Assembly: GCA_963846495.1 (NCBI GenBank) | Contig: CAWJWP010000016.1 | Span: 213,879 to 277,878, forward strand | Source: Thermoanaerobaculia bacterium | GTDB taxonomy: Bacteria > Acidobacteriota > Thermoanaerobaculia > Multivoradales > JAIOJS01 | Reading direction: 5' to 3' | DNA length: 64,000 nt | Shown: one piece after another, positions 15,048 to 39,762 of the stretch | How the letters are laid out: each line of letters starts with the position of its first letter | Position numbering within the stretch: position 1 is the first letter of the stretch | Made by a program: the position numbers and the translations under genes | Notes under the pieces: generated by a model | What the model was told of the DNA's origin: nothing | The model's input: the letters and a program-made list of their open reading frames with translations, nothing else | Databases searched by the model: none

Positions 15048-18000
15048 CTACGCCGGCGGTGTTAGATCGACCGTGACGCCACCGAGCAGTTGCTGGAGGT
15101 CGGGCAACTGCACCGGCTTGACGAGCAGCTTGTCGAAGCCGACCTCTTCGAGGCGGCCGCCGTGCACCTGCTCGCCATAGCCGGTGACCGCCACCAACGT
15201 CACGCCGCGCGTCGCTTCGTCGGCGCGTAGCCGGCGGCCCACCTCGTAACCGTCGAGCCCCGGCAGCCCGATGTCGAGCAGCACCACCTCTGGCCGTTGC
15301 TCCGCCGCAGCCGCCAGACCGCTCGGGCCGTCGTGCGCGACCTCGACGCGATGGCCCCACAGGCGCAACAGCTCGGCGAGGCTCTCCGCGCCCTCGACGT
15401 TGTCGTCGACGACGAGCACGCGCCGCGAAGCCCCTGACTCCGCGCTCGCCGGCCGCTCCGCCGGCGCCACGCCCGCCGGCGCGCCCGCGGAAAGCGGCAG
15501 CAGCACCTCGAACTCGCTCCCCTTCCCTTCGCCTTCGCTGCGCGCCGTCACCCGGCCGCCGTGCATCTCCACCAGCTGGCGCACCAGCGTGAGCCCGATG
15601 CCGAGGCCGCCCTGCGAGCGGTCGAGCGCCTGCTCCGACTGCATGAAGAGGTCGAAGACGCGGCCGAGCAGCTCCGGTGGCAGGCCGATGCCGTCGTCGC
15701 GCACGCGCAGCAGCGCGCACTGGCCGCGGCGCTCGACGCGCACCGTCACGTGGCCGCCCGACGGCGTGTACTTGTTGGCGTTGGCGAGCAGGTTGGCGAT
15801 CACCTGGTCGAGACGCGTCGCGTCGGCGCGCACCGGCAGCACCTCGCGCGGCACCTCGAGGCGCAGCTCCTGCCCGCGCTCGACGAAGCGCGGGCGGAGA
15901 TTGTCGACCGCGTGCGTTACCGCCGACACGAAGTCGAGCGGCGCGAGCCGCAGCTCGATGCGACCGCGGGTGATGCGCGCCACGTCGAGGAGGTCGTCCA
16001 CCAGCCGCACGATATGGCCGACCTGGCGTTCCATCACCGAGAGCGCGCGCTCGGCGACTTCGCGGTCGTCGCCGGCGAGGCGCAGCAGCTGGAGCGACGT
16101 CGCCACCGGCGACAGCGGGTTGCGCAGCTCGTGGGCGAGCATGGCGAGGAACTCGTCCTTCCGCCGATCGGCCTCGCGCAGCTCGGCGTAAAGCGCCGCG
16201 TTGTCGAGCGCCAGCGCGGCGCGGCGGGCCAGCTCGTCGGCGAGGCCCATCGCCTGGAGGTCGAAGCGCTCGGCGCCGGTGCGCACCAGCACCAGCGCGC
16301 CGAGCGTCTTGCCGCGCGCACGCAGCGGCAGCACCAGCACGCTCGTGCCGCCGACCTCGCGCAACAGCTCGCCGAGGCGGTCGCCGCGGTTGGCCGTCCA
16401 GTCGCGCGGATCGTCGAGCAGCAGCGGCTGGTCGAGCGTTGCGGCATCGACGAGCAGCGGCGCCTCGCCGCCACCCGCGGCGGCGATCTCGCGCAGCCGC
16501 CGCTCCTCCTCCACCGTTCGGTGCGCCACCGCCAGCCGCGGCGGCGCGTTGGGGACGTCGAGCAGCGCCAGCGACCAGTCGGCGAGGCCGGGCACGCTGC
16601 CGCGGGCGATGCGCTCGAGCGTCGTCTGCGGCTCGAGCGACGATGCCAGCGCGCTGCCCGCCTCGGCGAGCAGGCGCAGCGCCCACTCGGCGCGCCGGCG
16701 CTCCGCCACCTCCAGCTGCAAGTCTCGGTTCAACGCGGCGAGCTCGGTCGAGCGCTCGGAGAGCGCGGCGCTCGTCGTCGTCAGCTCGTGGAAGCGCTCC
16801 TCGAGCGCGCGCGCCGTGCGGCGGAAGTTGCGCGCCAGCGAGTCCACCTCGGCGACGCGGCTGCGCGGCCACGCCGGCAGCTCGCCGGACGCCAGCCGCT
16901 CGGGCAGGCCGGTCGTCGCCTCGGCGAGGCGGGCGAGCGGCCGCGCCAGCAGGCCCGACACCGCCGCCGACGCGAGCAGGGCCAACAGGCAGACACCGAG
17001 CATGGCGGCGAACGCGGTGAGGTAGCGCTCCTGCAGGAACTGCTGCAGCGGCAGGAGCGGCAGCTCGACGCGCAGATGCCACGGCGGCGCGCCGAACGCC
17101 AGCTCGCGGCCGTAGACCGAGCCGCGCCAGCGGTTGATCGCCGGCTGCGCCAAGCTCTCGGCGAAGCGCTGGTAGCGGCCGCCGGCGAGGCGTTGCAGGT
17201 CGCCTTCGACGCGGTAGGTCTGCAGCGGCAGCACGTCAGGCATCGTCGAGGCGATGACGACGCCGTGATCGTCGGTCAAGGTGAGCTGCGCCGCGCGCGT
17301 CGGCGCGTAGAGCGCCAGCAGACTGCGCAGCTGCTTGAGGTCGAGGGCGCCCACCGCGAAGCCGATAGCGCTTCCGTCGTGCAGCACCGGCGCGGCGATC
17401 GCCACCACCGGCTCGCGCCGCCCCAACGGCCCGCGATAGACGTCGGTGAGCACCGGCCGCAGGCTCTGCCGCGCTGCGGTGAGCCACGGCCGCTCACCCA
17501 CTCGCAGGCCGGCCTGCGAACGGCCCTCGGGGTCGAGGCGCGGCGACACCGCCACCACCCGGCCGTCGGCGTCGGCGAGGTAGACGCTCGCAAGCTCGGG
17601 GAAGATGCGCTGCACGAGCTCGACCTCCGGCTGCAACGCCGCGAGCGGTGCGCCGCTGTCGGCCGCGCCTTTCGCCAGCTCGACGACGGCGCCCAGGTGA
17701 CGGTCGCGCCAGTTGTCGATGCGGCTCGCCAGACTGTCGGCCGTCTGATCGAGCTGCGCCAGCAGGTCGCCTTCGAGCTTGCGCAGGTCCTGCCGCGTCG
17801 ACAGCACGACGAGCACGAGCAGCGGCACCAGCACCGCCGCCACCAACAGCTCGAAGATCATCTGCCGCAGCGGCACCGTCTCGCGCTCTGCCGCGCCGGC
17901 GAGCGTGTGGATGCGCGTGTGGGTGAGCAGCAAGCTGGCGACGAGCGCGTTGCCGATGCCGTTGACGCTCTGCTTGAGCATCACCAGCACCGTCGCCGCC

Positions 18001-18437
18001 GTGCCGCTCTCCATCACCGTGCCGTAGAAGAGCGCCACCAGCGGCATGCCGAGCAGCAGCCAGAAGAGCCCGTCGGCGAGCAGCACGTTCTGCTTGAGGC
18101 GCGGCGCCAGCATGCCGACGACGAGCGCCTCGACGGTGAAGATCACCGCCGCCCACGGGTGCCCCCACAGGAAGTAGGTGTAGCTCGCCGCCACCGCTGC
18201 CGCGGCCGTTCCCCACAGCGGGCCGTAGAGCCGCACCGCCAGCAGCGCGAAGATGCTGCCGAAGAGGAACTCGAGACCGAAGAAGAGCGGAGTGGCGAAG
18301 TAGTTGCCGGCGAAGGCGGCGAGGGTCAGCGCGACGTAGACGGGCAGGCTCCGGCCGCTGAGCGGGGTGGCGGGAGCTGCTTGCCGCTCAGCAGTCGGCG
18401 CCCGTCCAATCCTCTCCGGCGCGCGCTGCGGCTCCAC
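15048..18437 (-). CDS. Hybrid sensor histidine kinase (multi-TM N-terminus, periplasmic sensor, HAMP, GAF, HisKA, HATPase_c, C-terminal receiver)
   Basis: H-box LAHELRNPLSP, ATP-binding G-boxes (DDGIGLP...GGLGIGLT) and a C-terminal receiver domain (VLVVDDNVEGAESLAELL...LLDIGLPGLDG). Confidence 0.85.
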   Translation of the reverse strand: MEPQRAPERIGRAPTAERQAAPATPLSGRSLPVYVALTLAAFAGNYFATPLFFGLEFLFGSIFALLAVRLYGPLWGTAAAAVAASYTYFLWGHPWAAVIFTVEALVVGMLAPRLKQNVLLADGLFWLLLGMPLVALFYGTVMESGTAATVLVMLKQSVNGIGNALVASLLLTHTRIHTLAGAAERETVPLRQMIFELLVAAVLVPLLVLVVLSTRQDLRKLEGDLLAQLDQTADSLASRIDNWRDRHLGAVVELAKGAADSGAPLAALQPEVELVQRIFPELASVYLADADGRVVAVSPRLDPEGRSQAGLRVGERPWLTAARQSLRPVLTDVYRGPLGRREPVVAIAAPVLHDGSAIGFAVGALDLKQLRSLLALYAPTRAAQLTLTDDHGVVIASTMPDVLPLQTYRVEGDLQRLAGGRYQRFAESLAQPAINRWRGSVYGRELAFGAPPWHLRVELPLLPLQQFLQERYLTAFAAMLGVCLLALLASAAVSGLLARPLARLAEATTGLPERLASGELPAWPRSRVAEVDSLARNFRRTARALEERFHELTTTSAALSERSTELAALNRDLQLEVAERRRAEWALRLLAEAGSALASSLEPQTTLERIARGSVPGLADWSLALLDVPNAPPRLAVAHRTVEEERRLREIAAAGGGEAPLLVDAATLDQPLLLDDPRDWTANRGDRLGELLREVGGTSVLVLPLRARGKTLGALVLVRTGAERFDLQAMGLADELARRAALALDNAALYAELREADRRKDEFLAMLAHELRNPLSPVATSLQLLRLAGDDREVAERALSVMERQVGHIVRLVDDLLDVARITRGRIELRLAPLDFVSAVTHAVDNLRPRFVERGQELRLEVPREVLPVRADATRLDQVIANLLANANKYTPSGGHVTVRVERRGQCALLRVRDDGIGLPPELLGRVFDLFMQSEQALDRSQGGLGIGLTLVRQLVEMHGGRVTARSEGEGKGSEFEVLLPLSAGAPAGVAPAERPASAESGASRRVLVVDDNVEGAESLAELLRLWGHRVEVAHDGPSGLAAAAEQRPEVVLLDIGLPGLDGYEVGRRLRADEATRGVTLVAVTGYGEQVHGGRLEEVGFDKLLVKPVQLPDLQQLLGGVTVDLTPPA

Positions 18438-18541: not shown

Positions 18542-21487
18542 TCAGCCGTCCTGGCCGATGGCAGCGAGCACGCGCTGGCGGTCGTACGAGCTGCTGATGT
18601 GCGCCACGGCGCGCTGGAAGGCGGTGGCGAGCTCGCCTTCGATCTGCCCGGCACCGGCGACGGTGACGAGCAGCTCCGCGAGGTCGTAGTCGGAGCTGAA
18701 CGCGTCGGCGCTGGCGAGCAGACGCCGCACGTCCTCCTCCGGCAGCGGCCGCCGCATCGCCGCCTTCTGCAGCGTGCGGCGGCGGTCGTAGTCGGAGCTC
18801 ATGCCGCGCGCGAGGGTGAAGAACGACTCGCCGAGCGCCTTGCCGCGCGGCCAGCGCGTCGCCAGCAGGGTGAGCAGCTCGGCGCGGTCGTAGTCGGAGC
18901 TGATGCCGCGCGCGCAGGTGAGCGCACGCTCGGCCGTCGACGGCTCCTTCGCCGCCTCCACCACCTTCGACAGCGTGCGCCGCAGGTCGTAGTCGGAGTC
19001 GATGGCGGCGCACGCCTCGCCGAAGCTCGCCCCGGTGACCGCCGACGCACCGCGCGCGTCGACGGCGGCGATCAGCAGCTCGGTGAGGTCGTAGTCGGAC
19101 TCGATGCTGCGCGCCCCGAGCGCGACGATGCGCTCGACCTGCGCCGCGTCGGGCTTCGCCTGTTGGAGCAGCTCGACCGAGTAGACGCGCTGCACGTAGT
19201 CGGAACGGATGAGGCGCATCTCGGCGAGCACCGCGTCGACGCCGCCGCGGGCGAGGATGCGGCCGACGCGTCCCTTGGCGTCGATGCCGGTCTCGCGGAA
19301 GAGCTCGGGCAGCATGCGGCCGAGCCACGCGCGCGCCGAGTCGTCGAACGGGCGCGGCTCGCCGTCGAGCTCGAAGGTGACTTCCGGCGCGCCGCCGGCG
19401 CCCGGCTTGGCGATCAGCTCGCGCTCGTGCCCGCCGCGGCGCTCGAGAATGCGCAGCCGCCCGCCCGGCGAGACGCGCGTGATGTTGCGCTCGTCGGCGG
19501 AGAAGGCGACGTCGCCCTCGATGTCGAGGTCGAGGCGGCAGCGCCCTTCGCGCACGCGGATCGTCCAGGTGTGGTCGTCGTCGACGTTGATGCTGGCCGA
19601 GCGGCTCTTCGACTCGCCCGAGCTGCATGACGGGTCGTCGAAGGTGAAGCCGCCGGCCGGCGCCGGCGGGGCCGGCGGCGCGGGGGGAGCTGGCGGTGCC
19701 GGAGGCGCCGGCGGCGCAGCGGCAGCGGCGCGCACGCGGGGTGCCGGCGGCGACGGCGGCGAGGGCGGGGACGGTGGCGATGGAGGCGAGGGCGGAGAGG
19801 GCGGCGCGGGCGTCCAGTCGGAGGAGCGGGCCGCGCGCGGAGCCGTCGCCGCTCGCGGCGCCACCACGGCGACGGCGGGCGTGGCCGTCCTCGGTGCGGC
19901 GGCGGCGACCTCTGCGATCGCGGCCACCGGTGCCACGACCGCGACCGCTCCGGTGGCCGTCGTCGTGCCGCGATCGACGGCGCCCGCGGCGGGCTCGGCG
20001 ATCGCCGCCATCGCAGCCGGCGAGCTGGGCTCCGCCGCCACGGCGACACTCGCCTCCGTGGCCACGCTCTCTTCGGCGAAGGCCGCGACGACCGGCTCGG
20101 TCGTTGCGCCCGGCGGCGCCGGCAGCACGTCACCTTCGATGGGGGCGGCATCGGGAGCTGGTTCCGTGGCGGCCGCGAGCGCCGGCTCCACTTCCTCCGG
20201 CCGCGCGCCCGCCGCGGCAAGCGGCAGCACTACAGCGGCGGCGACGAGCAACACGACCGCTGCGGCGGCGCGCCCGAGTGGCCGCCGGTCGCGCGCCTCG
20301 TCGAGGATGGCGGCGATGCGGCTCGACAGCTGCGGCCGCCGCGCCATCGGCAGGGTGAGCGCCGGCGACGGCAGCGCCGCGCGCAGCGCACGCGCCACCT
20401 CGAGCAGGTGCCCGGCGTAGAGCGACGGCCGCGAGCCGGCGAGCAGCACGAGGTCGTCGCAGGCGTGCTCGGCCTCGGCGCGCAGCCGCCGCGCGGCGAT
20501 CCAGGCGAGCGGATCGAACCAGTGCAGCACGCAGGCGAGGTGCGAGAGGTTGAGCGCCAGCGCGTCGGCGCGCCGCACATGAGCGAGCTCGTGCAGCAGC
20601 ACGCTGCGGCGCTGCGCCAGCGGCCACCGCGCCGCGCTCGCCGGCAGCAGCACGACCGGCCGCCGCACGCCCCACGTCATCGGCACCTCGGTCTCGCGGC
20701 TGGCGAGCAGCGCGACCGGGCGATGCAGCTCGAGCCGCGTGGCGCACTCGGCGGCGAGCTGTTGCCAGTCGGCGGGCAGCGGACGCGCACCGGCGCGCAG
20801 GCGGCGGCGGCGCAGCAGCGCCGCACCGAGGCGGGCGAGGGCGAGCAGGGCACCGAGCGCCCAGACGGCGGCGAGGGTCCAGCTCGGGAGCGCGATTCTC
20901 GACGGCGACGAGGTGGAAGCCCATGGCGCGGGACTCGCCAGCTCCGCAGCGGCAGGCAATCGGCGGCGGTCAGCGCCGACGCGGCGCGCGCCGCGTCGCG
21001 TCTCGGCTGCACCGGCGGCGTCGGTGAGGATCGCGGTCTCCCGCGCCGTCGCCGTGTCGTCCTCTTGATGCCCGCGAAGGCAACAGCGCGCGTGGTCTCG
21101 CTCGCAGCCGGCGCAACGTCGCGCTCGCGATCGGCTCGTCGCGAGGGCTGACGGCAATGCAGTCGCGGTGGGCGCTTCCATCGCCGGCTGACCAGCTATA
21201 GCCGCGACCTCGCCTGCGCTCGGCGCCGCGGGCGTAATCGCGGCCAGCAGCTCCGCCGCCGGCGCGGGCAGCGGCACTCGCCACGCAGCCGGCAGCCGCT
21301 CGGCCGCCGGCAGCAGCAGCGTGCCGAGGAGCGCGCTGCTCCACAGCAGGTGGCGCACGGCCGGGCTGCGCCGATGCAGCGCCAAGTCGGCGGCACCGGC
21401 GAGCAGCAGCAATGCCGCGCCCTTCCACGCCCAAACCGGGAGCGACTCGAGGAGCAGGCGGACGAGCGTGTCGGCGTTCATTGTCAC
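18542..21487 (-). CDS. BlaR1/MecR1-like M56 peptidase signal transducer with proline-rich linker and a 7x SDYD-repeat C-terminal domain
   Basis: The N-terminus is BlaR1-like and TM-rich. The zinc-protease motif LLHELAHVRRAD is present. A (SPP)6 and (APP)5 linker follows, then seven ~33-aa repeats with the motif xSDYD(L/R)xxLL. There is no penicillin-binding sensor domain. Confidence 0.8.
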   Translation of the reverse strand: MTMNADTLVRLLLESLPVWAWKGAALLLLAGAADLALHRRSPAVRHLLWSSALLGTLLLPAAERLPAAWRVPLPAPAAELLAAITPAAPSAGEVAAIAGQPAMEAPTATALPSALATSRSRARRCAGCERDHARCCLRGHQEDDTATARETAILTDAAGAAETRRGARRVGADRRRLPAAAELASPAPWASTSSPSRIALPSWTLAAVWALGALLALARLGAALLRRRRLRAGARPLPADWQQLAAECATRLELHRPVALLASRETEVPMTWGVRRPVVLLPASAARWPLAQRRSVLLHELAHVRRADALALNLSHLACVLHWFDPLAWIAARRLRAEAEHACDDLVLLAGSRPSLYAGHLLEVARALRAALPSPALTLPMARRPQLSSRIAAILDEARDRRPLGRAAAAVVLLVAAAVVLPLAAAGARPEEVEPALAAATEPAPDAAPIEGDVLPAPPGATTEPVVAAFAEESVATEASVAVAAEPSSPAAMAAIAEPAAGAVDRGTTTATGAVAVVAPVAAIAEVAAAAPRTATPAVAVVAPRAATAPRAARSSDWTPAPPSPPSPPSPPSPPSPPSPPAPRVRAAAAAPPAPPAPPAPPAPPAPPAPAGGFTFDDPSCSSGESKSRSASINVDDDHTWTIRVREGRCRLDLDIEGDVAFSADERNITRVSPGGRLRILERRGGHERELIAKPGAGGAPEVTFELDGEPRPFDDSARAWLGRMLPELFRETGIDAKGRVGRILARGGVDAVLAEMRLIRSDYVQRVYSVELLQQAKPDAAQVERIVALGARSIESDYDLTELLIAAVDARGASAVTGASFGEACAAIDSDYDLRRTLSKVVEAAKEPSTAERALTCARGISSDYDRAELLTLLATRWPRGKALGESFFTLARGMSSDYDRRRTLQKAAMRRPLPEEDVRRLLASADAFSSDYDLAELLVTVAGAGQIEGELATAFQRAVAHISSSYDRQRVLAAIGQDG

Positions 21488-21873
21488 TTCCCCTTCAGCT
21501 GGGCGTCGGCGACGAGCGCCGAGAGGCGCTCGAGCTCGGCGTCGTCGAGGCGGTCGGATTCGAGGTCGAGCAGGGCGGCGACGGTGTCGGTCACCGAGCC
21601 GGCGAAGAAGGTCCCCACCAGGCGCTGCAGCGCCGTGCGCCGTGCGCGGTCGCGCGGCACCGTGGGCGAGAAGACGTAGCGCGGGCCGTCCTGCCGGTGG
21701 CGCAGGTGACCTTTTTCCTCCAGCACGCGCAGCAGCGCCCGCACGGCCGAGTAGCTGGGCGGGTCGGCCAGCTCGCCGTGCACCTCGGCCGCCGTGGCAC
21801 TCCCCTTGCGGTAGACGATCTCCATGATCTGGCGCTCACGCCGGCTGAGCTGGGCTTCGTCCTTCCTTGCCAT
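21484..21873 (-). CDS. blaI: BlaI/MecI/CopY family transcriptional repressor
   Basis: ATG 21873 is preceded by GAGGTGA. The winged-helix region (LSRRERQIMEIVYRKGSATAAEVHGEL...SAVRALLRVLEEKGHL) and C-terminal dimerisation helix are recognisable. The stop overlaps the M56 gene start by 4 nt. Confidence 0.85.
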   Translation of the reverse strand: MARKDEAQLSRRERQIMEIVYRKGSATAAEVHGELADPPSYSAVRALLRVLEEKGHLRHRQDGPRYVFSPTVPRDRARRTALQRLVGTFFAGSVTDTVAALLDLESDRLDDAELERLSALVADAQLKGK

Positions 21874-21922
21874 CTTCACCTCTCGGGCTTGTACGCTCTC
21901 GTGGCTTCGAGGTTGCACTGCG

Positions 21923-21954
21923 ATGCTAGAAAAACAGCATGCTGAATTTTTAGC
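21923..21954. promoter_or_regulatory. AT-rich near-palindrome TGCTAGAAAAACAGCATGCTGAATTTTTAGCA, candidate BlaI operator and promoter
   Basis: A 32-bp imperfect inverted repeat (26/32 symmetric) with a perfect core CAGCATGCTG, about 50 bp upstream of the blaI ATG. It is a conspicuous AT-rich island in a GC-rich genome. Confidence 0.5.
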
Positions 21955-23383
21955 ACCTCGGTCCGGTTTGTCAAGGGGTGGCGCGGCGAATGGGGCCGCG
22001 GCCGGCGCGGCCGTCCTGCTCGGGGTCCTGACGCTCGCCGGGTGCGCCACGCGCGGACCGCAACCGCCCCGGCGCGGCGAGCAGGTGCCGGTGCCGACGC
22101 CGACGCCAGTCGCGCCCGCTCCCACGCCGACGCCGACTCCGACCCCGCCGCCTCGCCTCGTGCTGGCGGACAGCTCGTGGCAGGAGTTGCCGGGCTGGGA
22201 CAAGGACTCCGCGGCTGCCGCGCTGCCCGCGCTCCAGCGCTCGTGCGAAGTGTGGCGCAACCGCGACGCCGCGACGACGCTCGGCGAGCAGGGCGTCGCA
22301 GGCACCGTCGCCGATTGGCTGCCGCTTTGCGATCGCGTCGCTGCGCTCGCGGCCGCGCCATCTACCACCACCGCCTCCACCGATGCCACCGCCGGAGCCG
22401 CCAGCACCGCGACCGCCACGACTACTGCCGCCGACAGAGATGGCGCCCTGCGCGCCGCCTTCGCCGACCTGCTGCGGCCAGTCGCTGTCTCCAACCGCGG
22501 CGACGTCGACGGTCTCTTCACCGGCTACTACGAGCCGACGCTGCGCGGCAGCCGCGTCGAGGGCGGCGAGTTCACCGTGCCGCTCTACGTGCGGCCGCCC
22601 GAGCTGGTGAGCGTCGAGCTCGGCCGCTTCCGTCCCGACCTGAAGGGCAAACGCATCGCCGGCCGCGTCGAGGACGGCGCCCTCGTGCCGTACCACGACC
22701 GCACCGCCATCGACGAAGGCGCGCTCGCGGGACGCGAGCTCGAGCTGGTTTGGGTGGACGATCCCGTCGACGCCTTCTTCCTCGAGATCCAGGGCTCCGG
22801 CCGCATCCAGCTCCCCGACGGCAGCGAGATGCGCGTCGGCTACGCCGGCCAGAACGGCTTCCCCTACTCCGCCATCGGCCGTGAGCTGATCAAGCGCGGC
22901 GCGCTGACCAAAGAGCAGATGTCGATGGACGCCATCCGCGATTGGCTGTCGGCGAACCTGAGTACCAACCCGGAGGAGGCGCGCGAGGTGATGCGGACGA
23001 ACGCGTCGTACATCTTCTTCCGCGAGATCCCCGGCGAGGGACCGGTGGGCTCGCTGGGCGTGGCGCTCACCCCCGAGCGCTCGCTTGCCGTCGACCCGCT
23101 CTTCGTCCCGCTCGGCGTGCCGGTGTGGATCGACACCACGTTGCCGGTCGGCGCCCCCGGCGGCCCACGTCCGTTGCAGCGCCTGCTCGTCGCCCAGGAC
23201 ACCGGCGGCGCCATCACCGGCCCGGTGCGCGGCGACGTCTTCTGGGGGCACGGCGAGGACGCCGCGAAGACGGCAGGCAGCATGCGCCAGCCCGGCCGCC
23301 TCTGGATCCTGCTGCCCAAGACCGTCGAGCTGCCGCCGGCGCTCACCACGCTCGAGGAGCCGCCCCCGGAGCCGTCAGGTTAG
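21923..23383 (+). CDS. mltA: Membrane-bound lytic murein transglycosylase A (MltA family) lipoprotein
   Basis: Lipobox LTLAGC, then MltA and 3D domains (…GYYEPTLRGSR…VPYHDRTAIDEGAL…FFLEIQGSGRI…). The start is uncertain: ATG 21923 overlaps the operator palindrome, and TTG 21968 is an alternative. The annotated 21824 extension is spurious. Confidence 0.8.
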   Translation: MLEKQHAEFLAPRSGLSRGGAANGAAAGAAVLLGVLTLAGCATRGPQPPRRGEQVPVPTPTPVAPAPTPTPTPTPPPRLVLADSSWQELPGWDKDSAAAALPALQRSCEVWRNRDAATTLGEQGVAGTVADWLPLCDRVAALAAAPSTTTASTDATAGAASTATATTTAADRDGALRAAFADLLRPVAVSNRGDVDGLFTGYYEPTLRGSRVEGGEFTVPLYVRPPELVSVELGRFRPDLKGKRIAGRVEDGALVPYHDRTAIDEGALAGRELELVWVDDPVDAFFLEIQGSGRIQLPDGSEMRVGYAGQNGFPYSAIGRELIKRGALTKEQMSMDAIRDWLSANLSTNPEEAREVMRTNASYIFFREIPGEGPVGSLGVALTPERSLAVDPLFVPLGVPVWIDTTLPVGAPGGPRPLQRLLVAQDTGGAITGPVRGDVFWGHGEDAAKTAGSMRQPGRLWILLPKTVELPPALTTLEEPPPEPSG

Positions 23384-32544: not shown

Positions 32545-32636
32545 GTCGCGGCTGACCAAGCGACTCGTCGTTGCGAGGAGCGCAGCGACGAAGCAACCTC
32601 GATCTCCGCAGGGAGCGGAAGCCGCTACGGGGCAGT
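32545..32636. repeat. 92-bp direct repeat, copy 1 (identical to 33145..33236)
   Basis: Base-for-base identity over 92 bp, seen directly. It contains the 36-bp core GTCGTTGCGAGGAGCGCAGCGACGAAGCAACCTCGAT. It lies upstream of rnz. Confidence 0.9.
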
Positions 32637-32640
32637 AAAG

Positions 32641-32845
32641 GTGAAGAAGAAAAAGTAGAGAGGGAAGAAGAGGAAATAAAAAAAGAGAGGGAAAGAAAAA
32701 AGAGGGAAGAGGAGAGAGGAAAAGAGAGAAAAGAGGAAGAAGGGAGAGGAATGAGAGAAGAGAGAGAGAGAGAGGAAGGAGAGGAGAGAGAAGAAGGAGA
32801 CGAGAGAGAAGAGGAAGAGAAGGAAAAGGGGGAAGCTGGAGATGA
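32641..32845. repeat. ~205-bp almost pure A/G tract (polypurine on the + strand, polypyrimidine on the transcribed strand of rnz)
   Basis: GAAGAAGAAAAAG…AGAGAGAGAGAGAGGAAGGAGAGG… with only a handful of T or C. It stands out sharply from the surrounding GC-rich DNA. The next ~300 bp (to 33144) remain strongly purine-skewed with very few T. Confidence 0.9.
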
Positions 32846-39655: not shown

Positions 39656-39762
39656 GGCGGGATCTTAGACCAGCGTCAGCTCGATTTGTTAACCGCCATT
39701 CACCTATCGCTTGATTATGAATGGCCGTTAAGTTATCCTCCGACGGCAACAGGAGGTGAGCC

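What the first reader, a model, noticed from the sequence alone, without database searches (positions are those of the whole stretch)
21874..21968. AT-rich 32-bp palindrome in the blaI-mltA divergent region: likely BlaI operator overlapping both promoters
TGCTAGAAAAACAGCATGCTGAATTTTTAGCA (21923..21954) is symmetric at 26 of 32 positions around a perfect CAGCATGCTG core. It is one of the most AT-rich stretches in the window. It lies ~50 bp upstream of the blaI ATG and overlaps one candidate start (ATG 21923) of the divergently transcribed mltA. This geometry would suit autoregulation plus co-regulation of the cell-wall lytic transglycosylase by the BlaI/M56 switch. It also favours the downstream TTG 21968 as the true mltA start.
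Basis: partly seen in the sequence, partly recalled or inferred. Interest (0 to 1): 0.5.

Follow-up and report, generated by a model that had tools for sequence, protein, structure and literature searches.

The report
Two BlaI repressor boxes on promoter
The AT-rich "palindrome" is two abutting 16-bp binding boxes (TGCTA-N6-TAGCA) for the neighbouring BlaI-type repressor, sitting on that repressor's own promoter; the same layout recurs in about 150 related loci from several phyla, so it is an ordinary self-regulating operator with a consensus I could not find described, and control of the neighbouring cell-wall gene mltA is still unproven.

Summary
The sequence is real. TGCTAGAAAAACAGCATGCTGAATTTTTAGCA lies at 21924..21955, one base right of the stated coordinates. 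It is 26/32 symmetric and is the second most AT-rich 32-mer in a 72% GC window. As a bare palindrome it is not exceptional: the window holds ten 26/32 palindromes. Comparison makes it significant. In 159 loci encoding BlaI homologues (57-85% identity; Gemmatimonadota, Acidobacteriota, Planctomycetota and others), 151 carry TGCTA-N6-TAGCA within 250 bp upstream of blaI. That is 437-fold enrichment, and 111 loci carry two or more boxes. The N6 spacing inside a box is invariant. The gap between boxes varies (0, 1, 2, 3 or 5 nt). So the unit is a 16-bp dyad, and the "perfect CAGCATGCTG core" is only the junction of two boxes. A TTGACA -35 lies 13-14 nt upstream of box 1, whose TGCTA doubles as an extended -10. 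Box 2 covers the predicted transcription start. This is classic autorepression of the blaI-M56 operon. The M56 partner has no beta-lactam-sensing domain. Divergent mltA is found only in the closest relative, and no mltA promoter is recognisable, so co-regulation is plausible from geometry but unshown. Codon composition supports TTG 21968 as the mltA start. Verdict: new member of a known kind, modest interest.

The parts
21940..21955 (-). Operator box 1 (promoter-proximal). It reads TGCTAAAAATTCAGCA on the blaI-sense strand. Its left arm TGCTA plus the A-tract forms the extended -10.
   Evidence: One mismatch to TGCTA-N6-TAGCA. A box at this position, 13-14 nt after TTGAC, is found in 50 of the 53 loci scored.
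21924..21939 (-). Operator box 2 (promoter-distal). It reads TGCTGTTTTTCTAGCA on the blaI-sense strand and covers the predicted transcription start and the early transcribed region.
   Evidence: One mismatch. A second box 0-5 nt after box 1 occurs in most homologous loci. The same 0-nt spacing is seen in the closest relative, L081.
21969..21974 (-). -35 hexamer TTGACA of the blaI-M56 promoter. Its complement contains bases 2-3 of the mltA TTG start codon.
   Evidence: Promoter scan: TTGACA, 17 nt, AAAAAT, 10/12 matches, with 0.0 sites expected in shuffles. Conserved in L081 and across the family.
21946..21955 (-). Extended -10 region TGCTAAAAAT. The hexamer is either TAAAAA at 21952..21947 with a 16-nt spacer, or AAAAAT at 21951..21946 with a 17-nt spacer.
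   Evidence: Family profile: positions 4, 5 and 9 of box 1 give T-A-n-n-n-T.
21876..21884 (-). Ribosome-binding site GAGAGGTGA of blaI.
   Evidence: Read from the sequence. GGAGGTG is conserved in L081.
21484..21873 (-). blaI-like repressor gene: 129 aa, winged helix plus a C-terminal dimerisation region.
   Evidence: PF03965 E = 1.6e-26. The recognition helix PSYSAVRALLRVLEEKGHLRH is nearly invariant among 140 distinct homologues.
18542..21487 (-). M56 membrane metalloprotease gene (981 aa). It carries HELAHVRRAD, a Pro/Ala-rich linker, and a C-terminal beta-sandwich plus 'SDYD' helical-repeat domain. There is no transpeptidase or beta-lactam sensor domain.
   Evidence: PF05569 E = 1.4e-31. 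It matches only positions 105-326 of the 585-position BlaR1 model. C-terminal model pLDDT 94.1, with no significant PDB fold match.
21968..23383 (+). Divergent mltA (lytic murein transglycosylase A, lipoprotein). The probable start is TTG 21968, 12 nt beyond the operator.
   Evidence: PF03562 E = 1e-62 plus the 3D domain. Lipobox LTLAGC. GC3 argument for the start. Same arrangement in L081 only.

Best explanation
The element is a tandem operator for the BlaI-family winged-helix repressor encoded 50 nt away.

Each 16-bp box (TGCTA-N6-TAGCA, half-site centres 11 bp apart) would bind one repressor dimer. The two boxes would therefore hold four protomers. Box 1 coincides with the extended -10 of the blaI-M56 promoter (TTGACA, 13 nt, TGCTAAAAAT). 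Box 2 covers the predicted start site. A bound repressor would exclude RNA polymerase, so the operon would repress itself.

By analogy with BlaR1/BlaI, a signal would be sensed by the extracytoplasmic C-terminal domain of the M56 protein, which is not a beta-lactam sensor. The signal would activate its HExxH protease. The protease would cleave BlaI, dimers would fall apart, and the operon would be derepressed.

Shown here: the sequence anatomy, the promoter match, and family-wide conservation of boxes, spacing and position.

Inferred: that BlaI is the binder, the stoichiometry, the start site and the proteolytic relay.

Because mltA starts 12 nt beyond the operator, its transcription must begin in or cross the operator. 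It may therefore be affected, but this is the weakest step.
For: - Box enrichment: boxes with at most 1 mismatch lie within 250 bp upstream of blaI in 75/80 genome loci and in 151/159 of all loci. 111 loci have two or more boxes. Density is 437 times that of the flanking 841 kb. Three of the eight exceptions have the tandem boxes further upstream, ahead of an extra gene or a long leader.
- Spacing: the intra-box spacing is fixed, with TGCTR-Nk-YAGCA giving 243 cases at k = 6 and at most 5 at any other k. The inter-box spacing varies over 0, 1, 2, 3 and 5.
- Promoter: TTGAC lies 13 or 14 nt upstream of box 1 in 50 of 53 scored loci, including the window. In the window the only promoter-like site is TTGACA-17-AAAAAT on the blaI strand.
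- Footprint: against the closest relative (L081, BlaI 85% identical), the intergenic DNA has diverged except for the -35, both boxes, a short TGCAACC and the RBS.
- Common denominator: the only genes shared by all loci are blaI and, in 70/80, the M56 gene. Upstream neighbours are heterogeneous.
- Protein side: the recognition helix is nearly invariant in 140 distinct homologues, matching the invariant half-site.
- Precedent: BlaI/MecI bind dyad operators in their own promoter regions (PMC1935004). C. thermocellum BlaI proteins need two inverted repeats, four protomers, with half-sites 5 nt apart (PMC8457756).
Against: - There is no binding, footprint or transcript data for this or any related locus.
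- The canonical BlaI/MecI/CopY core TACANNTGTA is absent, so assigning the binder rests on co-occurrence.
- The half-site TGCTA is also part of the extended -10, so some of box 1's conservation could reflect the promoter alone. This cannot explain the TAGCA arms or box 2.
- The 160 loci were retrieved with peptide patterns from this BlaI and are phylogenetically related, so the counts are not independent events.
- A centre-to-centre distance of 16 bp puts the two dimers on roughly opposite faces. The 0-nt spacer is seen only here and in L081.
Confidence: 0.85

Rival explanations
1. Same operator, and it also controls mltA. The locus would be a bla/mec-style divergon in which the divergent gene (here a lytic transglycosylase) is the regulated output of the BlaI/M56 switch.
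For: - Geometry: the probable mltA start TTG 21968 is 12 nt past the operator and lies inside the complement of the blaI -35. Any mltA transcript must therefore initiate in or traverse the boxes.
- The closest relative, L081, keeps mltA, the 0-nt-spaced boxes and the same frame relations.
- Canonical systems place the effector gene divergently across the operators (PMC1935004).
- A BlaIR-family system without a beta-lactam sensor controls a peptidoglycan hydrolase in C. difficile (PMC13492132).
Against: - No MltA is found next to blaI in the other 159 loci.
- Divergent neighbours are heterogeneous.
- No sigma-70-like promoter for mltA is found in 21840..21975, even at lenient thresholds.
- There is no Shine-Dalgarno sequence before TTG 21968.
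- An active blaI promoter would physically overlap any mltA promoter. Derepression could therefore lower mltA transcription rather than raise it.
Confidence: 0.4
2. The 32-bp palindrome acts as one unit. It could be a cruciform or hairpin (DNA, or RNA in the mltA leader), or a site for a single large symmetric complex centred on CAGCATGCTG.
For: 26/32 symmetry with a perfect 10-bp centre. The same 0-nt junction occurs in L081.
Against: - In 152 other upstream regions the junction is 1-5 nt long, and its sequence is not conserved.
- The two AT-rich spacers are usually both T-rich on one strand, so the boxes are not complementary to each other beyond their arms.
- 40 loci have a single box.
- The fold energy is ordinary (z = -1.75).
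Confidence: 0.04
3. It is only an AT-rich promoter region, with the palindrome arising by chance or from promoter elements, and no repressor binds.
For: - 26/32 palindromes are common in the window (10 of them).
- TGCTA fits TGnTA of an extended -10.
- Intergenic DNA in high-GC genomes is generally AT-rich.
Against: Promoter elements do not explain the invariant TAGCA arm at exactly N6. They do not explain the second box downstream of the -10, or the boxes 27-29 nt upstream that flank the -35 in Acidobacteriota loci.
Confidence: 0.05
4. The boxes are bound by a different regulator, for example an HrcA/CIRCE-like or global factor, which happens to control blaI-M56 operons.
For: TAGCA/TGCTA pentamers also occur in CIRCE (TTAGCACTC-N9-GAGTGCTAA). 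This surfaced in the literature search.
Against: - Orientation and spacing are opposite to CIRCE, and there is no CIRCE match in the window with up to 3 mismatches.
- The boxes track blaI across at least six phyla with unrelated neighbours.
- Outside blaI upstream regions only 12 boxes occur in 841 kb.
Confidence: 0.05

Closest known systems
bla/mec operators of Staphylococcus aureus and Bacillus licheniformis (BlaI/MecI; Z and R1 dyads, OP1-3)
   Same: - PF03965 repressor next to an M56 protease gene.
- Imperfect dyad operators inside the intergenic promoter region.
- More than one dyad per region.
- A divergently transcribed neighbour gene.
- Autorepression relieved by proteolysis (PMC1935004).
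   Different: - The core here is TGCTA-N6-TAGCA (arm centres 11 bp apart). The canonical core is TACANNTGTA, which is absent.
- The gene order is repressor first.
- The sensor lacks the transpeptidase/beta-lactam domain.
- The divergent gene is mltA, not a beta-lactamase or PBP2a.
- Protein similarity to solved BlaI is low (phmmer E = 7e-5 to 1p6r).
Clostridium thermocellum BlaI_0696 and BlaI_1845 operators (DAP-seq/EMSA; PMC8457756)
   Same: - Non-TACA half-sites (GTCTAT/GACTAT) as inverted repeats 5 nt apart, giving nearly the same dyad geometry.
- Two dyads (four protomers) upstream of the repressor's own operon.
- Very small regulons.
   Different: - Different half-site sequence and different phyla.
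- The binding there was shown experimentally. Here it is inferred.
CenIR of Clostridioides difficile (PMC13492132)
   Same: [quoted passage not shown]
- Its regulon includes a peptidoglycan hydrolase (Cwp6). This is a precedent for a BlaI/M56 switch governing a cell-wall lytic enzyme.
- The paper reports that only about 6% of M56 proteins carry the transpeptidase domain.
   Different: - A Firmicute system, with no operator motif reported in the text I searched.
- The hydrolase is an amidase-type Cwp, not MltA.
- Its control was measured. Here it is not.
CopY/CopR cop box (TACANNTGTA)
   Same: - Same Pfam family. The best NCBIfam hit of the window protein is CopY_TcrY, far below cutoff (47 bits against 122).
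- A dyad operator on its own promoter.
   Different: - No cop box.
- No C-terminal Cys-rich metal site in the protein sequence.
- The partner is an M56 protease, not a copper ATPase.
CIRCE / HrcA operator
   Same: Contains TAGCA and TGCTA pentamers.
   Different: The arms are in the opposite order, TAGCAC...GTGCTA, 15 nt apart. There is no match in the window and no heat-shock genes nearby.

Membership tests
BlaI/MecI-type autoregulatory operator (PF03965 repressor with M56 protease) | The adjacent gene encodes a Penicillinase_R (PF03965) winged-helix repressor. | tested here: met
   PF03965 E = 1.6e-26, covering 1-114 of 115 profile positions.
BlaI/MecI-type autoregulatory operator (PF03965 repressor with M56 protease) | A co-transcribed M56 membrane metalloprotease with the HExxH zinc motif. 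| tested here: met
   PF05569 E = 1.4e-31. HELAHVRRAD is present in the translation. GTG 21487 overlaps the blaI stop codon.
BlaI/MecI-type autoregulatory operator (PF03965 repressor with M56 protease) | Dyad-symmetric site(s) overlapping the promoter of the repressor's own operon. | tested here: met
   Two dyads lie immediately downstream of TTGACA and overlap the -10 and the predicted +1. Conserved in 151/159 loci.
BlaI/MecI-type autoregulatory operator (PF03965 repressor with M56 protease) | The canonical core TACANNTGTA. | tested here: not met
   With up to 1 mismatch there are three sites in the window (8475, 30278, 50518), none within 8 kb of blaI. The core here is TGCTA-N6-TAGCA. Non-TACA cores are documented in the family (PMC8457756), so this excludes the Staphylococcus/Bacillus/CopY specificity class and not the family.
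BlaI/MecI-type autoregulatory operator (PF03965 repressor with M56 protease) | The repressor physically binds the site, and binding is lost after proteolysis. | not testable with these tools
   Needs EMSA or footprinting and cleavage assays.
Canonical beta-lactam-sensing BlaR1/MecR1 system | A C-terminal penicillin-binding (transpeptidase-like) sensor domain on the M56 protein. | tested here: not met
   Only model positions 105-326 of 585 of NF000326 align, at 82 bits against a cutoff of 400. No PF00905 hit. The C-terminal domain models as a beta-sandwich plus helical repeats with no PDB match at E <= 0.001.
Canonical beta-lactam-sensing BlaR1/MecR1 system | A divergent or linked resistance gene (beta-lactamase or PBP2a) under the operator. 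| tested here: not met
   The divergent gene is mltA (PF03562 plus 3D). No beta-lactamase was found among the flanking ORFs examined.
bla/mec-style divergon (effector gene co-repressed through the shared operator) | The divergent gene's promoter overlaps the operator, and the pairing is conserved. | tested here: inconclusive
   No mltA promoter is detectable. The pairing is conserved only in L081. The geometry forces transcription through the operator.
CIRCE/HrcA operator | TTAGCACTC-N9-GAGTGCTAA. | tested here: not met
   0 matches with up to 3 mismatches.

The most novel reading that the evidence does not exclude
A BlaI/M56 proteolytic switch carries a previously uncharacterised extracytoplasmic sensor (beta-sandwich plus seven 'SDYD' helical repeats). 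In this Gemmatimonadota-like lineage it directly gates the lytic transglycosylase MltA through a shared tandem operator, forming a cell-wall remodelling circuit unrelated to beta-lactams. In addition, a large cross-phylum clade of BlaI paralogues shares one operator specificity (TGCTA-N6-TAGCA). Several such loci can occur in one genome, so the paralogues may form a cross-regulating network rather than insulated pairs.
Probability: 0.3. Interest if true: 0.55.

Novelty: new member of a known kind. Interest (0 to 1): 0.3.

Why it matters
It turns an anonymous palindrome into a testable cis-element. The consensus has 10 defined bases at fixed spacing, and its position in the promoter is fixed. 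It predicts the operators of a large, unstudied clade of BlaI/M56 systems in soil phyla: Gemmatimonadota, Acidobacteriota, Planctomycetota, Eisenbacteria, Verrucomicrobiota and Myxococcota. Most such systems lack a beta-lactam sensor and have unknown signals and outputs (PMC13492132).

The motif can be used to scan complete genomes for regulon members. One candidate is the cultured Singulisphaera acidiphila DSM 18658, which carries the same cassette (L032). It can also be used to design EMSA probes.

Locally, it fixes the likely mltA start. It also flags mltA as a candidate output, which would parallel the recent finding that a BlaIR-like system controls a peptidoglycan hydrolase in C. difficile.

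Tried and rejected
- Palindrome statistics alone: not significant. Ten 26/32 palindromes occur in the window.
- Hairpin or cruciform: DNA fold -7 kcal/mol, z = -1.75. Rejected because the inter-box spacing varies in relatives.
- Other boxes in the window as regulon members: only GC-rich 2-mismatch sites, at chance frequency (9 found against 5.9 expected). The TGCT-N8-AGCA excess (6 against 0.63) consists of GC-rich sites. The one I checked, at 18378, lies inside the histidine-kinase ORF. I treated all of these as not operator-like.
- Canonical TACANNTGTA and CIRCE searches: negative.
- Rfam: no family anywhere in the window.
- Exact look-up of the window BlaI in public assemblies: not on record.
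- Conserved divergent partner: 103 candidate upstream ORFs gave heterogeneous Pfam hits, led by Lactamase_B-fold in 8, another BlaI in 4 and MeaB in 3, with SLT in 1 and MltA in 1. My regex attempt to locate the single SLT hit failed.
- Single boxes elsewhere in related loci: they precede unrelated genes (HEAT-repeat, DUF5916/CBM9, DUF4097), with no common output.
- Lenient scan for an mltA promoter: nothing in the window. In L081 there is only an extended -10 inside a box.
- Sensor-domain side quest: a confident model but no informative fold match, so it says nothing for or against a peptidoglycan signal.
- Literature: six full-text searches found no paper linking BlaI to TGCTA/TAGCA boxes. 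This is a limited library, so prior description cannot be excluded.
Full report
**1. What is in the sequence**

The blaI-like gene runs on the minus strand from ATG 21873 to 21484. It encodes 129 aa and matches PF03965 at E = 1.6e-26. It is followed, with overlapping stop and start codons, by a 981-aa M56 metalloprotease gene (21487..18542; PF05569, E = 1.4e-31; motif HELAHVRRAD).

On the plus strand an MltA lytic transglycosylase ORF (PF03562 plus 3D) ends at 23383.

The quoted 32-mer is present, at 21924..21955 rather than 21923..21954. It is 26/32 self-complementary around CAGCA|TGCTG. It lies 50 nt from the blaI ATG. It is the second most AT-rich 32-mer in a window of 72% GC.

The symmetry alone is not remarkable. 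Ten 32-mers in the window reach 26/32, against 0-5 in shuffles. The single-strand fold is ordinary.

**2. What it is: comparative evidence**

I retrieved 80 loci from species-representative genomes and 80 from metagenomes that encode BlaI homologues of 57-85% identity. By record title they come from Gemmatimonadota, several Acidobacteriota classes, Planctomycetota (including the isolate Singulisphaera acidiphila DSM 18658), Eisenbacteria, Verrucomicrobiota, Nannocystaceae and others.

Printing the 130 nt upstream of each gene showed the same thing almost everywhere. There is a TTGACA, then about 13 nt, then TGCTAnnnnnnTAGCA, then a short gap, then a second TGCTAnnnnnnTAGCA.

The counts are as follows:
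- A box with at most one mismatch lies within 250 bp upstream of blaI in 151 of 159 usable loci.
- 111 loci have two or more boxes.
- Box density there is 437 times that of the remaining 841 kb of locus DNA.
- Three of the eight exceptions carry the tandem boxes further upstream, ahead of an extra gene or a long leader.

**3. The unit is a 16-bp dyad, not a 32-bp palindrome**

Across 153 distinct upstream regions, TGCTR-Nk-YAGCA occurs 243 times at k = 6 and at most 5 times at any other k from 0 to 15. The reverse junction YAGCA-Nk-TGCTR is spread over k = 0 (1), 1 (4), 2 (13), 3 (35) and 5 (43).

Forty loci have only one box. In most relatives both AT-rich spacers are T-rich on the same strand, so the two boxes are not mutually complementary beyond their arms.

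The 0-nt junction is found only here and in the nearest relative, L081.

**4. Relation to the promoter**

The only sigma-70-like site in 21700..22150 is on the blaI strand: TTGACA (21974..21969), 17 nt, AAAAAT (21951..21946). It matches 10/12 positions, with 0.0 sites expected in shuffles.

Family-wide, TTGAC sits 13 nt (29 loci) or 14 nt (21 loci) before box 1. The arm TGCTA therefore supplies the TGnTA of an extended -10. Box-1 position 9 is T in 59/75 operators, consistent with the final T of the hexamer.

Box 2 then spans the expected start point (about 21936..21942) and the first transcribed bases. A repressor on either box would compete with RNA polymerase. That is the standard autorepression layout.

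**5. Why BlaI is the likely binder**

- blaI and, in 70/80 loci, the M56 gene are the only genes common to the loci. Upstream neighbours are heterogeneous.
- Against L081 (BlaI 85% identical), the intergenic DNA has drifted except at the -35, the two boxes, a TGCAACC heptamer and the RBS.
- The putative recognition helix (PSYSAVRALLRVLEEKGHLRH) is at least 95% conserved at most positions in 140 distinct homologues, in parallel with the invariant DNA arms.
- Published family behaviour fits. BlaI/MecI bind imperfect dyads in the bla/mec intergenic regions and are inactivated by cleavage between the DNA-binding and dimerisation domains (PMC1935004). Two C. thermocellum BlaI proteins recognise non-TACA inverted repeats 5 nt apart and seem to require two dyads, four protomers, per target (PMC8457756).

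Binding itself is inferred, not shown.

**6. What it is not**

- The canonical TACANNTGTA core is absent from the region.
- CIRCE is absent, and its arm order and spacing are opposite.
- No Rfam family matches anywhere in the window.
- The M56 protein aligns to the BlaR1 model only over the protease part (positions 105-326 of 585; 82 bits against a cutoff of 400) and has no transpeptidase domain. The pair is therefore a 'BlaIR-like' system of unknown signal. According to PMC13492132 this is the majority class (only about 6% of M56 proteins carry the beta-lactam-binding domain).

**7. mltA**

Start codon. The 15 codons from ATG 21923 to 21967 have GC3 of 0.27. mltA overall has GC3 of 0.91, and no 15-codon window within it falls below 0.67. 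Those 15 codons also include CTA, TTT and TTA, none of which is used in 1583 codons of blaI, M56 and mltA.

The ATG arises from the preferred A flanking TGCTA, which is A in 36/75 operators at box 1 and 31/75 at box 2. Both candidates are conserved in frame in L081, so this is not proof.

Regulation. TTG 21968 is 12 nt beyond the operator and overlaps the complement of the blaI -35. Any mltA transcript must therefore start in or pass through the boxes. This resembles the blaZ/blaP/mecA divergons (PMC1935004).

Three points argue for caution:
- I found no sigma-70-like mltA promoter, even with lenient criteria.
- There is no SD sequence before the TTG.
- MltA is adjacent to blaI in only 1 of 160 related loci.

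RNA polymerase at the derepressed blaI promoter would also occupy the same DNA. The sign of any effect on mltA is therefore unpredictable. I put co-regulation at about 0.4. The CenIR precedent, a BlaIR-like system controlling the peptidoglycan hydrolase Cwp6 (PMC13492132), makes it plausible but also less novel.

**8. Side observation on the sensor**

The C-terminal 340 residues of the M56 protein contain seven repeats, about 33-40 aa apart, each with an S-D-Y-D motif. They have no Pfam match. Homologues of this region include fragments of M56/BlaR1-like proteins, one of them named 'bla regulator protein blaR1' by its source. They also include proteins of about 390-420 aa with no recorded Pfam domain that may be stand-alone.

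An AlphaFold2 model built from 58 sequences is confident (pLDDT 94.1). It shows a beta-sandwich followed by a helical-repeat solenoid. Foldseek against the PDB gave only generic helical-repeat hits, none at E <= 0.001. This says nothing for or against a cell-wall signal.

**9. Novelty and verdict**

The kind of element is textbook: a tandem dyad operator through which a BlaI-family repressor controls its own operon.

What I could not find described is the consensus TGCTA-N6-TAGCA. The same holds for its rigid placement 13-14 nt after the -35 and its conservation across several phyla. Six full-text searches covered a limited library, so this is absence of evidence only.

I file it as a new member of a known kind, with modest interest (0.3). 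The operator and the blaI promoter overlap hold, and so does the TTG start. The single 32-bp unit does not hold. mltA promoter overlap and co-regulation remain unproven.

Noticed in passing
window 32630..32835 (+): A run of about 200 nt of almost pure purine (G/A) on the plus strand (gtaaaggtgaagaagaaaaagtagagagggaagaag...). It is the most AT-rich stretch of the 72% GC window (28% GC in the lowest 32-mer).
   Followed up: no
window 39682..39722: An inverted repeat TTAACCGCCATTCA-N12-TGAATGGCCGTTAA (13/14 complementary) in an AT-rich intergenic patch. It lies about 40 nt upstream of ATG 39764, which has a strong RBS (AGGAGGTGA). It looks like another operator.
   Followed up: no
window 18542..19570 (minus; C-terminal third of the M56 protein): An uncharacterised sensor domain: a beta-sandwich plus seven helical repeats, each with an S-D-Y-D motif. 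It has no Pfam family. Homologues include M56/BlaR1-like fragments and roughly 390-420-aa proteins with no recorded Pfam domain. The AF2 model has pLDDT 94.1, and there is no PDB fold match at E <= 0.001.
   Followed up: partly
L026 and L029 (same Planctomycetota MAG); L065 and L073 (same Longimicrobium MAG): Paralogous blaI loci within one genome carry the same TGCTA/TAGCA arms. The paralogous repressors may therefore cross-bind each other's operators. How insulation is achieved is unclear.
   Followed up: no
153 distinct blaI upstream regions (loci L001-L160): The inter-box spacer is 0, 1, 2, 3 or 5 nt (1, 4, 13, 35 and 43 cases) but never 4 nt. This may reflect sampling of related lineages or a helical-phase constraint.
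   Followed up: partly
L016, L023, L024, L026, L028, L032, L035, L072, L129: In several Acidobacteriota, Planctomycetota and Verrucomicrobiota loci a further box lies 27-29 nt upstream of the promoter-proximal box. It flanks the -35 on its upstream side where a -35 is evident.
   Followed up: no
L047:1478-2359 and L157:52-933: Here the TTGACA and tandem-box cassette precedes a DUF5694 gene (PF18950, E = 1.4e-39) that sits in front of blaI. The operon can therefore carry an extra leading gene.
   Followed up: partly
window 15048..18437 (minus): A large hybrid sensor kinase lies immediately downstream of the M56 gene. Its domains are 5TMR-LYT, dCache, GAF, HisKA, HATPase and a receiver. The box-like TGCTTGCCGCTCAGCA at 18378 lies inside its coding region and is probably chance.
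   Followed up: partly
candidate divergent ORFs upstream of blaI in 103 loci (alignment A1): 8 of the 103 have a metallo-beta-lactamase-fold domain (PF00753) and 1 has an SLT lytic transglycosylase domain. Which lineages these come from, and whether they share the operator, was not resolved.
   Followed up: partly
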